This document shows positions 22,412-44,347 of a DNA stretch of 64,000 nucleotides, piece by piece. This DNA is from Octopus vulgaris (Eukaryota). A program made the position numbers and the translations under genes. The stretch covers positions 58,652,001 through 58,716,000 of the forward strand of contig OX597824.1 in assembly GCA_951406725.2 (NCBI GenBank), written 5' to 3'. Below the pieces are notes generated by a model. The model saw nothing but the letters and a program-made list of their open reading frames with translations. It had not been told where the DNA came from and did not search any database. Positions within the stretch are counted from its first letter, which is position 1; every line of letters begins with the position of its first letter.

Positions 22412-22937
22412 AAGCAAAGTCAGCTAATTAGAAAATCTCTATAAGTGATGAAAGTAGTAACTATACTGAGAAGTATTGTTTAATGCCACATCAATCTGGC
22501 CCTTCCTTAGGAACCGACGTTACTATCGTTTTTAACCCCAGAAGGAGCCTCCTCCAGCTGGTTATCGATGCAATCTATACCTGATATATATTGTAAGCAA
22601 GAGAGCGAATCTATATCATATTCTAGTAGACGACGGGATCACCGGACAGTATGGTTTCTGGTTATTTATGCCCATCGTCAGTGGTGAACACCCGTCCACT
22701 TCAAATAGCAATAATTCATTCCAACCTACAATATGCAGAAAGCCAAGCGACAATCAGTCACTGATCATGCAACAAGCAAAGTAGCTAGTTAGAACATCTC
22801 AATAACAAATAAGAGTATCAACTATACTGAGAAGTATTGCCTATTCCACATCAGTGTGGCTGTTCCGTAGGAATCGACGTTACTACCGTTTTTAAACCCA
22901 GGAGAAGAGGAGCCTCCTCCAGCTGGTTATCGATGCA
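22412..22937 (-). mobile_element. Retrozyme-like partial tandem repeat (period approx. 362 bp) containing one hammerhead ribozyme
   Basis: Direct repeats at approx. 22412-22572 and 22774-22937 share AACTATACTGAGAAGTATTG and GGAGCCTCCTCCAGCTGGTTATCGATGCA; a hammerhead lies in the single-copy middle; no ORF. Confidence 0.72.
22632..22696 (-). ncRNA. Type I hammerhead ribozyme with canonical core
   Basis: GACGGG-TGT-TCACCA-CTGACGA-TGG(GCATAAATAA)CCA-GAAA-C(CATACT)G-TC^CGGTGA-T-CCCGTC; extended stem I with an internal loop; one A-C mismatch next to the cleavage site. Confidence 0.8.
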
Positions 22938-23102
22938 CCCGACATATATATATGTATGTATATATATATATATATATATATATGTTTGTGTGTGTGTGTG
23001 TGTCTGTGCGTGTGTGTGTGTGCGTGTGTGCGTGTGTGCGTGCGTGTAGATCGCTAGCCACTACACATTCTTTATTTTCTCTCCTTATTTCTTTCTGTCT
23101 TC

Positions 23103-23139
23103 CTTTCTGTGGAAAAGCGTAGGCTCGAAACGTTAAAGA
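23103..23139 (+). ncRNA. Degenerate minimal hammerhead-like motif within a short Penelope-end-like repeat (approx. 23048-23223)
   Basis: CTTT-CTGTGGA-AAAGC(GTAG)GCTC-GAAA-CG-TT-AAAG; the CUGANGA box is mutated. Confidence 0.45.
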
Positions 23140-25266
23140 CTTATTGACTTCCCGAGCGTTATACTGATACATCTGTTTGCTGTCTACGCCACCTATCTTT
23201 GTCTTTTTTTGTGAATTCTCCCTATATATATATATATATATATGAATGCTGTATGTTGAACTGTGCTGATACACAATTCAGCAACGTACCTGAGAAGTGT
23301 TCGAATGTGGCACTGTGAAACAGAATGTTTACCTTATTTTGCTAACCAATCAATATCCCGTTCTACAGCGGTCTCCATCATCTGAAAGCGTAATATTCTC
23401 ATAGTGGACTAAAATCCAAGCTTGATCACCGTTGTTTAAGATGGCAATCACTACATTATAGTGGAATGAATGGCGTGACTCGAGGTCAGATACAATTTCA
23501 CATTGCAATCATTTGTATGACGGAGGTTGCCAGGAGGCTTGAAACCAAGTAGCTTTCTATCAGCAATTTTGCTCAAGCATCTTCCACCAAAATCAGGAAT
23601 GTGGTTCTCCTCAAATACTCCCGTTAATTTGCTTCTTACGCAAAATCAGCAAATATCGTTTTGAAAATTAACAAAAATATAAATAAAATATAATCTTTAT
23701 TTAAAACACACAATCTTTACTTTAGAGAAATGTTTTTTTAATTAGAATAGACAAAATTAAGTATGAAAAACAACAGCACAAAATATAAAATGTTAAATAT
23801 AAACAGGGAACAGCAAATATGTGAGAAAAACCTAATATTTTCACAAAACAAAATAAAAAGCAGTAAAATTATGTGTATAATTTAAAATTATGTAAATAAT
23901 ATCAATTGGGTTATATTACGTAATATGGGTATTAATGAGTTGGGGTAACAGTAAAGAGCGAAATAGTTAATTAAATGTTTATGAGATATTAACATTTTTT
24001 GTATAAGACAGAAGATTTGATGATATCTTCACACAAAATCATAATTAATAACAAAAAAATGTCAATGACTGAAATAAGAAACAACACCAACAGCAACACA
24101 AATAGCACCATCACCACCAGAAACATTAACGTTATCATCATCGTCGTCGTTGTCGTCGTCATCATCATCAACAACACCAACAAAATATATCTATAATCCT
24201 TCTTTAAATAAAAAAGTTACATTTGCTAATATCGCATTGCAAAGTTAAAGAATTCAAAATAAGTGACGAAACAGACTGCTATGATATTATCTTTCTGGGT
24301 CTTAAGCTGTGAAAGTCTTAAATCCTTTAAAAGCTTTAAATATATTATGTAAACACACATAAACACATACACATACACTCACACACACACACACACGCAT
24401 GCACGCGCGCACACACATATACGCACACACGCACGTACACAGAGTTACGTACATATAGACGTGAGATGCCCGCACATATGTACGCAAAGAGCCTGATAAG
24501 TATGTGTTTCACAGTAAAGTATAATGGATATCTTGGCAGGCTTGTGGGACAAACATGTATAAAAACAGCCGGGATCAATTAGTTTGAGTTAGAGAAATAG
24601 ATAGAGAGATAGACAGACAGACAGGCAGGCAGACAGATATATATATATATATATATATAGAGAGAGAGAGAGAGAGAGATAGATAGATAGATAGATAGAT
24701 AGATAGATAGATAGATAGATAGATAGATAGATAGATAGATAGATAGATAGACAGACAGGTAAATAGAGAGAGAGAGACAAAGACAGAGACAGACAGGCAA
24801 ACAGACAGACAGAGCCAGAGAGAGATGGATGGATAGACTAGAGAAGTAAAGATAGTTATATGATAGGGAGACAGAGCGACGGTGATATAAACGAAAGATA
24901 TAGACGAAATTGTTTTCTCACGGTTGGATATTTTAATTAAATATCCTTACATTTGATGTCTCCCTATCCCAGTGAAAATAAACGCACTTCAGGACTGTCT
25001 ACATCTCAGTCTTGCGAAAATGTCTTGACTTCTTCTATGACTCTCTCTTATCATCTCCTTTATTTTAAAAAAACATATCTTCTCCCCGCTCTCTAACTCT
25101 CTGTACTCTTCATCATATAAATGTATCAAATATGACCATTAGTACTTTACCTACTTTTGTACATATTAACTAAACGAATACCAAGTCGACTTATATAATA
25201 ATAATAATAATAATAATAATAATAATAATAATAATAATAATAATAATAATAACAATAATAATAATG

Positions 25267-41932: not shown

Positions 41933-43920
41933 GCATCTTTACCATCTCGTCTGGCAGCTTGTTCCACGGATCCGCAACCCGGACGGAGAAAGCTCCTCTC
42001 CTTCGATTGAGATGAAATCGTCGCAGGTAGAGCTTTTCGGAATGACCCCGCAGCCGACGCTCTGGAGCAGGAGTGAAGAGCAGCTCTTTCGAGAGGTTAC
42101 ACTTTCCGCTTATGATGTTGTGGGCGAGAATGAAATCACCACGGCAGCGGCGTTTTTCAAGAGAATAAAGGTCGAGCGCCCTCAGCCTTTCTTCGTAGGA
42201 CAAATTTTTGAGACCATGAACCATGCGGGTAGCCAGCTTCTGGACTCTTTCGAGATGCTGTATGTCTTTGAGGAGATAAGGAGAAGAGGCTTGAATCCCA
42301 TACTCCAATATGGGTCTCACCAGCGTGACATAGAGTGGAAGGAATATGGCTGCTGTGAGCATTCCCAATGACCGTCGAATCATGAACAGAATTCCGCGTG
42401 CTTTGTTGGCAGCATGGACGCACTGGGCCGAAGGCGAAAAGGAGGAATCCACCAAGATACCCAGGTCCTTTACCTGATCGGTCCTCTCCAGCAGCAGACG
42501 ACCCGGCTCGAAATCAAGTTGAGTTGCAGGAGTAGAGCCGACAGGCAGATGACAGCACTTTGACACGTTCAGACACAGGTCCCAATCGTTAGACCACTTC
42601 CAAATTTGGTGGAGGCATCGACGAAGATCCTCTATATTACCGCGAGGAGCGACCAGTTTGATATCGTCGGCAAATAGAAGGGTGTGTTGCGTGAGGTCGT
42701 CGGGAAAGTCATTTATGAAGACTAAGAACAACAAGGGCCCAAGCACTGAACCTTGAGGCACGCCACTGCTCGCACTGGAGACGTCGGACCGCGAACCATT
42801 AACTTGGACTTGGAAGGAGCGATCTGAGAGGAAGGCACCAACCCATCGTACAATATCCGGATGGAAACTATATGCTTGAAGCTTGACAAGTAATAGGCGG
42901 TGGTTTACCGAGTCAAAAGCTTTGGCAAAGTCCAATAGAACGATGTCAACAGCATCACTATCATCGAGGATGCGCGTCACCAATTCTTCCATTACTAGTA
43001 AGTTGGTCAAGCATGATCTCTTCGGCACGAAGCCGTGTTAGGAATCAGAGATAGAGGCTGTGTTTAGGAGGTGGAGCATCATACTTTTCTTAAGGATGGT
43101 TTCGAGCATCTTGCTGATTATTGATGTAAGGGAAACCGGTCGGTAGTTAAGCGGGTCTTCGCGGCTCCCTTTCTTGAAAATTGGGCAGATTATCGCTGTT
43201 CTCCAGTCTGCAGGTATAACACCCGTCGCCAATGACATATTGAATAGTCGTGTTAAGGGCTCGCAGATGACTGGAGCCAACGCTTTGATAACCCGTGGGT
43301 GTATGCCGTCAGGGCCGTGACCCTTGTTGACATCGAGGCCCTGAATAACACGTTTGACTTCGTCCCGCGTGATGACCAATCGAAGCATTGGAGGTACCGA
43401 TCTATCAAATAGAGGGGGTTCACGACCATCATCTTGTTTGAAAATAGTTGAAAAAGCCTCGGCAAATAATTGACTCTGTTGATAAGGGTCCTCAATCGAT
43501 ACGCCTGTTGAGTCTACCAACGTTGCAATCTGGTTGTTTAAGCGGGAATTCCGCTGGACATGGGCAAAGAAGGTTTTTGGATTGCTACTGGCATTTGCCG
43601 CGATTTTGTATTCATAACTGAAGCGTTCTTTCTTTTCAATTTTCACGGCTCGGTCTTGTTGAGTTTTGTACACCTCAAAAGCTGCAGTCGAATCCAGATT
43701 TTTGAATTCAGCCCAAGCAATATCTCTGAGTCGACGTTCTCGTTTAACCTTCTTCGCCACCCAGGGCTTGTGTTTCTTCCCCCTGGGAAGCCCAACGGGA
43801 ACTGCCTGGTCGGTCAAACAGATTACATATGCTTTGAGGGATGACCATAGTTCGTCAACTGAGGACAACGTCATCAGGGATCGCCAGTCCAGAAGCGCGG
43901 AAGCCTCGGTTAGAATTTCA
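41933..43920 (-). mobile_element. CR1/L2/Jockey-group LINE ORF2 (RT), truncated at both ends, one premature TAA at 43038-43040
   Basis: ORFs 43038-43874 and 41859-43028 are in the same frame: GPDGIHPRV, NYRPVSLTS, LDFAKAFDSV, GVPQGSVLGPLLFL, FADDIKL, KDLG, RLRGH...FSVRVADPWNKLP. Confidence 0.95.
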
Positions 43921-43934
43921 AGATTAATTGCAGA

Positions 43935-44347
43935 TATATGTTAAGTATATGCGGCTAATGAAATTTATTATAATAGAGCTGCTACTATTCCATATTTGAA
44001 TTCATTCTTATGTATGCACTTGCCGAGCATACCTCTACATGGTTTTGCATGCCATGAACATATTAGTCGTGGACTAGCTAGGTCATTCGCCTCCGATAAT
44101 GTCGGGTACGTAAAGTTGACAAGCCACAACAATGGCGATACATCGATGTCGATTAATCGTAGATGATGGGATTGAAGGTGAGTTAGCTCGCCTGTCCATG
44201 ACTCTGAGGTATATTAGTACACGGAGCTTCGAGAGAGTACATACTCCACCGCACCAATAGCAGCCCATCGGCAAATATACGAAGCATATACGTTAAGTAT
44301 AAGTGGTTAATGATATTTATAATACTAGAGCTGATTTAATTTCATAT
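43935..44347 (+). mobile_element. Decayed retrozyme-like unit (period approx. 352 bp)
   Basis: Approx. 60-bp direct repeats anchored by GTTAAGTATA at 43940 and 44292; hammerhead-like motif and long flanking stems between them. Confidence 0.55.
44108..44160 (+). ncRNA. Degenerate type I hammerhead-like motif
   Basis: TTGACAA-GCCA(CAACAA)TGGC-GATA-CATCGATG-TC; three core substitutions from CTGACGA/GAAA; palindromic stem III. Confidence 0.5.

What the first reader, a model, noticed from the sequence alone, without database searches (positions are those of the whole stretch)
22412..44347. Three unrelated hammerhead-containing tandem units (350-420 bp): a candidate retrozyme / circular RNA system alongside Penelope-like elements
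Seen: three non-coding loci (22412-22937, 38913-39470, 43935-44347) share one architecture, namely slightly more than one copy of a 352-420 bp unit with exactly one type I hammerhead or hammerhead-like motif, and no evident similarity to each other outside the ribozyme core. Established: metazoan non-LTR retrozymes are tandem units of a few hundred nt with type I hammerheads, can yield circular RNAs, and are proposed to be mobilised by Penelope-like elements. Inference: a >1-unit partial tandem is what reverse transcription around a circular template would leave, so this genome may host several retrozyme families, with Penelope-like helpers present in the same window. I cannot tell whether these families are already catalogued.
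Basis: partly seen in the sequence, partly recalled or inferred. Interest (0 to 1): 0.82.

Follow-up and report, generated by a model that had tools for sequence, protein, structure and literature searches.

The report
Hammerhead-bearing mini Penelope-type repeats, decayed copies
Three short non-coding repeats in a likely octopus genome, each slightly more than one unit long with one damaged self-cutting-RNA motif, are likely old inserted copies of 'retrozymes', a known kind of animal parasitic element; one belongs to a many-copy family with an intact motif, but RNA circles are untested.

Summary
The three partial tandems are real (1.45, 1.34 and 1.18 units of about 363, 420 and 352 bp) and unrelated to each other. 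Each holds one type I hammerhead-like motif outside the repeated part. Loci 1 and 2 (minus strand) beat all shuffles; locus 3 (plus strand) has three core mismatches and is only probable.

Public contigs laid on locus 2 show a many-copy family. Its majority base restores catalytic G8 (99.7% of depth), and the head-to-tail junction is family-wide. Loci 1 and 3 could not be tested this way.

All three end 193-233 nt downstream of the cleavage site at a (TA)n or (TG)n run, the footprint of Penelope-like internal priming. They are best read as dispersed, likely dead copies of non-autonomous Penelope-type elements (non-LTR retrozymes), a known class.

No locus has two ribozymes, so none could release a unit-length RNA. 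A partial tandem does not prove a circular template: Penelope-like elements make them from linear tandem RNA. The only Penelope coding sequence found in the window is a stop-ridden relic. Verdict: new member of a known kind; circles untested.

The parts
22412..22937 (-). Locus 1: 1.45 copies of a ~363-bp unit (repeat R + unique U + R), between a (TG)n run at its 3' end and an (AT)n run at its 5' end
22645..22681 (-). L1 type I hammerhead: intact core, 3-bp stem II, weak stem III; predicted cleavage after 22645; at the tip of a long imperfect hairpin
   Evidence: 0 of 150 shuffles; z -2.44, 3 of 200
22774..22937 (-). L1 upstream (5') partial copy, 164 bp, ending 71 nt short of where a second cleavage site would be
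38909..39470 (-). Locus 2: 1.34 copies of a 420-bp unit; member of a many-copy family; 3' end merges into (TA)n
39102..39160 (-). L2 type I hammerhead: stem I 7 bp, long stem II, palindromic helix III (GAAACCGGUC); G8 is A in this copy, G in 99.7% of family depth; predicted cleavage after 39102
39329..39470 (-). L2 upstream partial copy, 142 bp, 52 nt short of a second cleavage site; its junction to U near 39329 is crossed by family contigs
   Evidence: (tables 4 and 8)
43934..44347 (+). Locus 3: 1.18 copies of a 352-bp unit; 3' end merges into (AT)n; 5' end abuts the 5' side of a LINE fragment
44116..44150 (+). L3 probable decayed type I hammerhead (three core mismatches, G-C stem II, 10-nt palindromic stem III) at the tip of a ~55-bp hairpin
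12555..13163 (-). Dead Penelope-like coding relic (region after the RT core plus GIY-YIG endonuclease) with in-frame stops, inside a 630-bp inverted-repeat pair (11553-12182, 13254-13867); context, not linked in sequence to the three units

Best explanation
The three loci are partial tandem repeats with one hammerhead-like motif each and are likely dispersed, now-inactive insertions of three separate non-autonomous Penelope-type elements (non-LTR retrozymes), likely copied in trans by a Penelope-like reverse transcriptase-endonuclease into dinucleotide microsatellites. Proposed mechanism: (1) a tandem source locus elsewhere is transcribed (inferred; not seen). (2) A Penelope-like protein nicks AT-rich or microsatellite DNA and primes reverse transcription internally, at a site about 190-230 nt downstream of the hammerhead cleavage site (the geometry is shown; the enzymology is carried over from the anole element). 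(3) It copies one full unit and part of the next before stopping, which leaves R-U-R with one ribozyme (structure shown for all three; family-wide junction shown for L2). (4) The copy then decays (shown: core or stem mismatches in all three; in L2 the G8 change is not the family state). With one damaged ribozyme each, these loci would not release a unit-length RNA. The template is a little more likely a linear multimeric transcript (about 50%) than a ligated circle (about 35%); nothing here separates them.
For: Repeats and motifs. L2 family (4 of the 24 runs listed were laid): 1819 and 1432 contigs lie on 597 bp in two DNA-type runs with different organism labels (counts include the 37-bp flank, which is another repeat); summed depth over the unit is 4,000-179,000 against 27-57 for the long single pieces listed. 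Position 39155 reads G8 in 43804 of 43946 (X1), 39767 of 39872 (X6), 616 of 616 (X9) and 44 of 44 (X15) depth units. A variant restoring the 10.1-11.1 pair has 41% and 57% of depth. The head-to-tail junction has depth 60104 at 39333 in X1 and is crossed by listed contigs in X6, X9 and X15. Other copies stop at different places on the 5' side (single-contig loose ends at 38950, 39039, 39086, 39198, 39459), and one 532-nt contig ends at 38930 in a TA-rich tail. All three 3' ends lie 193-233 nt from the cleavage site at a dinucleotide run, against 297 of 4000 random sites with a first run 150-250 nt downstream (range chosen afterwards). Units folded as circles are more stable than shuffles (z -1.6 to -5.3), GC 34-42%, no ORF. 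Literature: PMC7229834, PMC8557442, PMC11167929, bioRxiv 10.64898/2026.07.22.740005.
Against: No source locus with two ribozymes was seen; the three 'goes back' joints can be explained by double mapping of R. Loci 1 and 3 have no family data. The L3 motif is weak (Rfam E 0.86; 1-3% of shuffles with a post hoc descriptor). No sequence link between any unit and an autonomous Penelope-like element was found in the window. Summed contig depth is not a copy number (tool's own warning), 57 variant rows and 293 loose ends were not shown, and no contig spans this locus itself. L1 ends in (TG)n, not (TA)n.
Confidence: 0.75

Rival explanations
1. One reading: the families cycle through ligated circular RNAs. 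Dimeric hammerheads cut a tandem transcript to monomers, a host ligase circularises them, and a Penelope-like enzyme primes internally and runs 1.2-1.5 times round the circle. It differs from the best explanation only in template topology.
For: This is the published retrozyme model (PMC7761336 section 9; PMC7229834), with circles shown in coral, mussel and axolotl. Unit sizes, GC content and self-pairing match. The L2 helix III resembles the dimer-dependent axolotl type described. The junction is family-wide and depth shows no clear 5' decline along U.
Against: Partial tandems also arise from linear tandem RNA, and hammerhead mutants did not affect insertion in vitro (PMC11167929). All three upstream copies stop before a second cleavage site (52-136 nt short), which a ribozyme-cut linear 5' end would force; on a circle it has a chance of about 0.17 (0.64 x 0.46 x 0.56). 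Repeat-to-unique depth ratio is 2.8-3.4, whereas long arrays would give about 1; this measure is rough.
Confidence: 0.33
2. The loci are 3' fragments of ordinary autonomous Penelope-like elements: 5'-truncated copies with a pseudo-LTR made by a locus-specific template jump. There is then no independent small element.
For: Hammerheads lie in Penelope pseudo-LTRs and partial tandems are typical (PMC8557442). The window holds a Penelope relic and several other hammerhead relics upstream of microsatellites. Only 128-226 nt of unique sequence lie upstream of each cleavage site, which could be 3' UTR.
Against: For L2 the R-to-U junction is shared across the family, and none of the best-supported loose ends leads from the unit into a common foreign sequence (293 not shown). 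No match between the units and the relic's flanking repeat or the other relics. Untested for L1 and L3.
Confidence: 0.18
3. The direct repeats are local duplications or small LTR-type (TRIM-like) ends, and the hammerhead-like motifs, above all in L3, are chance.
For: R-U-R looks like a miniature LTR element. No motif reaches an Rfam gathering score. L3 has three core mismatches.
Against: L1 and L2 motifs beat 150 of 150 shuffles each. The L2 family majority restores exactly the catalytic G8. The ends do not read TG...CA on both sides and no target duplication is visible. In all three the motif's strand puts the dinucleotide run at the 3' end at a similar distance.
Confidence: 0.06

Closest known systems
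Metazoan non-LTR retrozymes (Cervera and de la Pena 2020, PMC7229834; results and discussion read), e.g. the 350-390-bp Mytilus units and the 330/350-bp axolotl units
   Same: Non-coding units of 350-420 bp, GC below 50%, one type I hammerhead per unit, head-to-tail junction, self-paired predicted fold, many copies (L2), weak palindromic helix III like the axolotl HHR_Amex1 description.
   Different: These loci have under 1.5 units and a single damaged ribozyme. No dimer or array, no self-cleavage and no circular RNA shown. No cephalopod example in the text read; the supplement could not be read.
Retrozyme 'monomer' derivatives of Penelope pseudo-LTRs (Li, Clavereau and Pollet 2026, bioRxiv 10.64898/2026.07.22.740005; parts 1-3 of 5 read)
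   Same: Dispersed near-monomeric copies of hammerhead units, read as offspring of active tandem loci and as non-autonomous Penelope derivatives.
   Different: Their 'active' class needs two consecutive units with complete hammerheads, which none of the three loci has. Homology to an autonomous element's pseudo-LTR was not found here. Their sample was 31 vertebrates, 3 insects and 1 anthozoan; no mollusc.
Penelope-like elements with C-terminal endonuclease and their non-autonomous partial-tandem derivatives (PMC8557442, passages; PMC11167929, parts 1-2 of 4)
   Same: Partial tandem with pseudo-LTR, variable 5' truncation, 3' end downstream of the hammerhead, insertion at AT-rich or microsatellite DNA, no clear target duplication.
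   Different: No RT or GIY-YIG ORF. The hammerhead lies outside the duplicated part. Stems I and II are longer than in the minimal Penelope hammerheads as those papers describe them.

Membership tests
Non-LTR retrozyme | Type I hammerhead with CUGANGA, GAAA and UH core | tested here: met
   L1 core intact; L2 family majority intact. L3 is inconclusive, see next row.
Non-LTR retrozyme | Hammerhead core in locus 3 | tested here: inconclusive
   Three core mismatches; Rfam E 0.86; 10-30 of 1000 shuffles; no family data.
Non-LTR retrozyme | Head-to-tail unit of about 150-450 bp, non-coding, GC below 50% | tested here: met
   Periods 352-420; GC 0.34-0.42; longest stop-free stretch 67-92 codons.
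Non-LTR retrozyme (active locus) | At least two consecutive units each with a complete hammerhead, at these loci | tested here: not met
   One motif per locus; upstream copies stop 52-136 nt short of a second site. The loci are filed as monomer-type offspring, not as active retrozymes.
Non-LTR retrozyme | Family has dimeric or multimeric source loci elsewhere in the genome | tested here: inconclusive
   No genome held. In one search the junction is family-wide but no listed contig runs unique-repeat-unique.
Non-LTR retrozyme | Many copies | tested here: met
   L2 only.
Non-LTR retrozyme | Highly self-paired unit RNA | tested here: met
   Circular folds, z -1.6 and -3.0 (L1), -5.3 and -4.7 (L2), -2.4 and -3.3 (L3), 60 shuffles each. 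One L1 version is not significant.
Non-LTR retrozyme | Expressed as unit-length linear and circular RNA; self-cleaves | not testable with these tools
   Only assembled contigs were available, which show no strand, ends or circles.
Penelope-like element (autonomous) | ORF with RT and GIY-YIG endonuclease | tested here: not met
   No ORF in the units; the only tblastn match in the window is a separate relic with stops.
Penelope-like element (non-autonomous) | Partial tandem with fixed 3' end downstream of the hammerhead and variable 5' truncation | tested here: inconclusive
   Geometry fits in 3 of 3 loci. For L2, one other copy ends at the same 3' place and several single contigs stop at different 5' places, too few to call the 3' end fixed.
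Penelope-like element (non-autonomous) | Insertion at AT-rich or dinucleotide microsatellite DNA | tested here: met
   (TA)n at the 3' end of L2 and L3, (TG)n at L1.
Penelope-like element (non-autonomous) | Homology to the pseudo-LTR of an autonomous partner | tested here: inconclusive
   None within the window; genome and repeat libraries not available.
Plant LTR retrozyme / TRIM | Type III hammerhead inside both terminal repeats, short target duplication | tested here: not met
   Motifs are type I and lie outside the repeats; no target duplication at the flanks.

The most novel reading that the evidence does not exclude
This likely-cephalopod genome carries many unrelated, uncatalogued mini Penelope-type families that spread mainly as single-ribozyme 1.2-1.5-mers whose upstream copy never passes the hammerhead cleavage site. 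That cap would be the genomic footprint of a linear template whose 5' end the ribozyme cuts, combined with internal priming about 200 nt downstream. It would give the Penelope hammerhead a role in vivo and let the circle-versus-linear question for retrozyme transposition be decided from genome sequence alone.
Probability: 0.25. Interest if true: 0.62.

Novelty: new member of a known kind. Interest (0 to 1): 0.36.

Why it matters
The class is known, so the value is modest. It would extend non-LTR retrozymes to cephalopods, for which my searches found no description, and offer a many-copy family with an intact consensus core (L2). The more useful point is a test. How retrozymes and Penelope-like elements make partial tandems is open: the circle model is a hypothesis, and the one purified enzyme did not need ribozyme cleavage. 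The length distribution of the upstream partial copy across many insertions, capped at the cleavage site or not, would separate the two models.

Tried and rejected
No whole genome is held, so no genome-wide BLAST, consensus building for L1/L3 or array search.

Sequencing-run search with L2: 24 rows, 20 holding part of the stretch, none half or more; no RNA holder listed. X9 and X15 are only guessed to be RNA; their cover of the unit (29 and 30 of 30 bins) is not used as evidence of expression. Unlaid runs are not used as evidence.

The three 'goes back' joints (39467, 39468 and 39471 to 39106 or 39135) were rejected as proof of arrays or circles, because a contig from repeat copy 1 into U can be mapped that way.

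Pattern scans with a short L2 motif gave 1 metagenome and 3 viral-contig matches; none extends beyond the pattern, so they are chance.

Rfam whole-window scan: 121 matches, nearly all microsatellite-driven microRNA or snoRNA hits, no hammerhead. I considered by eye an HDV-like or variant-hammerhead reading of the L3 minus strand and dropped it: the P1 strand does not fit and Rfam gave nothing there. My first descriptor missed the L1 motif because it demanded a longer stem II; one search relaxed it.

Pfam gave no family for the Penelope relic and only a sub-threshold GIY-YIG hit for its homologue P0001 (E 0.24); the ESM Atlas placed P0001 near RT/GIY-YIG clusters. ARAGORN found no tRNA gene.

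Earlier scan notes: nothing by place or by sequence. Lunse et al. 2017 is not held (only its title was seen in a reference list). The PMC7229834 supplement could not be read, and the preprint's supplements were not asked for; either could list relevant species. PMC10886601 (passages) was irrelevant.
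Full report
Setting. The window is microsatellite-rich animal DNA (123 tandem-repeat rows) with decayed LINE and mariner fragments. No genome is held. A decayed ORF at 19227-19820 has 16 homologues, of which 2 carry names: an Octopus sinensis protein (66%) and an archaeal MAG protein (52%). 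An octopus host is therefore an inference, helped by my recall of octopus repeat style, which comes from no call.

Observation. Self-BLAST and the repeat finder give three direct-repeat pairs: L1 22412-22572/22774-22937 (82.5%), L2 38909-39050/39329-39470 (96.5%) and L3 43934-43995/44286-44347 (80.6%). Each locus is R-U-R, 1.45, 1.34 and 1.18 units long. The three do not match each other at word size 7 and hold no ORF.

Ribozyme motifs. A descriptor scan of both strands found 7 distinct candidates in the window with at most one core mismatch; the best three are L2, a motif at 40529-40610 and L1. L1 (minus, 22681-22645) has an intact core but weak helices; L2 (minus, 39160-39102) has A at G8 and a palindromic helix III. 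Neither score was reached in 150 shuffles. L3 had nothing with two or fewer mismatches. A focused Rfam scan then aligned Hammerhead_HH9 to its plus strand (14.9 bits, E 0.86): three core changes, a G-C stem II and a perfect 10-nt palindromic stem III. A descriptor made after seeing it passes in 10-30 of 1000 shuffles, and the motif caps a long hairpin (z -3.54), as do those of L1 and L2. L2 also matches HH9 (21.6 bits, E 0.0078). L1 matched no hammerhead model, and none reaches a gathering score. In every locus the motif is in U, so each locus has one.

Family evidence, L2 only. I laid 4 of the 24 runs listed on 38913-39509. Two DNA-type runs with different organism labels gave 1819 and 1432 contigs, most 90-99% alike, covering 30 of 30 bins. 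Summed depth over the unit is hundreds to thousands of times that of the long single pieces. The tool warns that this is no copy number, so I claim only 'many copies'. At 39155 the family reads the base that restores G8 in 99.7% of depth in both DNA-type runs and in all depth in the other two. A change restoring the first stem II pair has 41-57%, and the cleavage base varies only to another permitted base. No listed variant falls in the remaining core positions, but 57 rows were hidden. The R-to-U junction is covered as deeply as U (60104 at 39333 in X1) and is crossed by listed contigs in three runs, so the unit closes on itself across the family. Repeat depth, both copies summed, is 2.8 and 3.4 times unique depth. 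That fits R-U-R plus R-only copies better than long arrays, though it is a rough measure. One other copy ends at 38930 in a TA-rich tail, and single contigs stop at five different places on the 5' side. No listed contig runs U-R-U, and none spans this locus. The flank beyond 39472 belongs to another, very abundant repeat whose first ~30 bases are missing here (table 7); calling it Tc1-like is my recall.

Geometry. Read in ribozyme sense, all three elements end 233, 193 and 197 nt downstream of the cleavage site in a (TG)n, (TA)n and (AT)n run. Only 297 of 4000 random sites have a first dinucleotide run 150-250 nt downstream, a range I chose afterwards. The 3' ends are thus not at the cleavage site, which argues against priming at the end of a cut monomer. 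The upstream copies stop 71, 52 and 136 nt short of a second cleavage site. No target duplication is visible. The divergence of the R pairs suggests L2 is young and L1 and L3 are old (inference).

Mechanism. A purified Penelope-like protein nicks AT-rich DNA and starts reverse transcription internally on tandem RNA, downstream of the hammerhead. G8 and C3 mutations abolish cleavage but not insertion (PMC11167929, parts 1-2 of 4). Partial tandems, 5' truncation and (TA)n bias are general Penelope features (PMC8557442, passages). The three loci carry this footprint on units too small to encode anything. The best reading is trans-mobilised, non-autonomous Penelope-type units, that is non-LTR retrozymes, seen here as decayed daughters (0.75). 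A linear multimer gives the same product. The consistent stop before the second cleavage site leans slightly to a ribozyme-cut linear template (chance about 0.17 on a circle). With one ribozyme each, these loci are not sources of monomers or circles.

Helpers. The only Penelope coding match found in the window is 13163-12555 (minus), 34% identical to P0001 (E 4e-26), with in-frame stops and no RT core matched. P0001 groups with RT/GIY-YIG clusters in the ESM Atlas. It lies inside a 630-bp inverted pair. It is a relic, and proximity is not needed for trans-mobilisation. If the host is an octopus, helpers plausibly exist: Octopus vulgaris has 190 Penelope-like families covering 6.83% of the genome, 31 of them recently active (PMC13282606, passages and supplement search).

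Comparison and novelty. The class is established (PMC7229834), and a 2026 preprint argues that animal retrozymes are Penelope derivatives with many dispersed monomers; it defines active loci by two complete ribozymes. These loci fail that test and pass the unit-level tests. Searches for retrozyme + hammerhead + octopus, hammerhead ribozyme + cephalopod + Penelope and octopus + hammerhead + ribozyme + genome found no description of cephalopod retrozymes. The giant squid paper counts 235 Hammerhead_1 hits without analysis (PMC6962438, passage), and the O. vulgaris repeat paper never mentions ribozymes in its main text or supplement. The families may still sit in repeat libraries as Penelope or Unknown; I could not check, and unread supplements may bear on this. 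Earlier notes of this scan list 56 retrozyme/hammerhead findings in at least 28 genomes, unchecked, which shows only that such loci turn up often.

Verdict. Real, mostly as described, and a new member of a known kind. Circular RNA, source arrays and the families of L1 and L3 are untested. Interest 0.36.

Noticed in passing
window 40529-40610 (+): A type I hammerhead with a perfect core, long stem II and near-palindromic stem III, about 155 nt upstream of a TA-rich tract; no partial tandem found around it. A better core than any of the three reported loci.
   Followed up: partly
window 46247-46171 (-): Hammerhead relic with one core mismatch, 6-bp stem II and a perfect 8-nt palindromic stem III, followed by a (TG)n run within about 90 nt.
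   Followed up: partly
window 21642-22377 (-), motifs at 21823 and 21769: A ~740-bp segment next to locus 1 ends in (TA)n and has two closely spaced CUGANGA cores, the second followed by GAAU in place of GAAA; probably a Penelope-type 3' end with a variant double motif.
   Followed up: no
window 11553-12182 and 13254-13867: 630-bp inverted repeats (74% alike) flank the Penelope relic. Both keep an identical ~40-nt stretch with CUGAAGA, a 6-bp stem II and GAAG in place of GAAA: a possible non-canonical hammerhead variant.
   Followed up: partly
window 23050-23222 (+): Short segment right of locus 1 with a minimal hammerhead-like relic (stem II hairpin, then GAAACGUU) ending in (TA)n.
   Followed up: no
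window 37831-37972 and 39510-39649: A 142-bp inverted duplicate (97%) brackets 1.5 kb that includes locus 2; the right copy interrupts the abundant repeat flanking locus 2.
   Followed up: partly
window 41859-43940 (-): LINE fragment with an RT domain (Pfam RVT_1, E 8e-25) and one in-frame stop; its 5' side abuts the 5' end of locus 3 and may have shortened it.
   Followed up: partly
window 57347-59668 (+) and 53090-54975: 773-codon open RT plus zf-RVT frame of a LINE, and a 65% alike decayed relative upstream.
   Followed up: no
window 18862-21377: Element with ~220-bp inverted ends (75%) around a decayed ORF of no Pfam family; homologue named in Octopus sinensis, and one in an archaeal MAG, which may be contamination.
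   Followed up: partly
window 26971-28221: A 449-bp direct repeat (82%) separated by a long (AAT)n tract; not examined for ribozyme motifs beyond the window-wide scan, which found none there.
   Followed up: no
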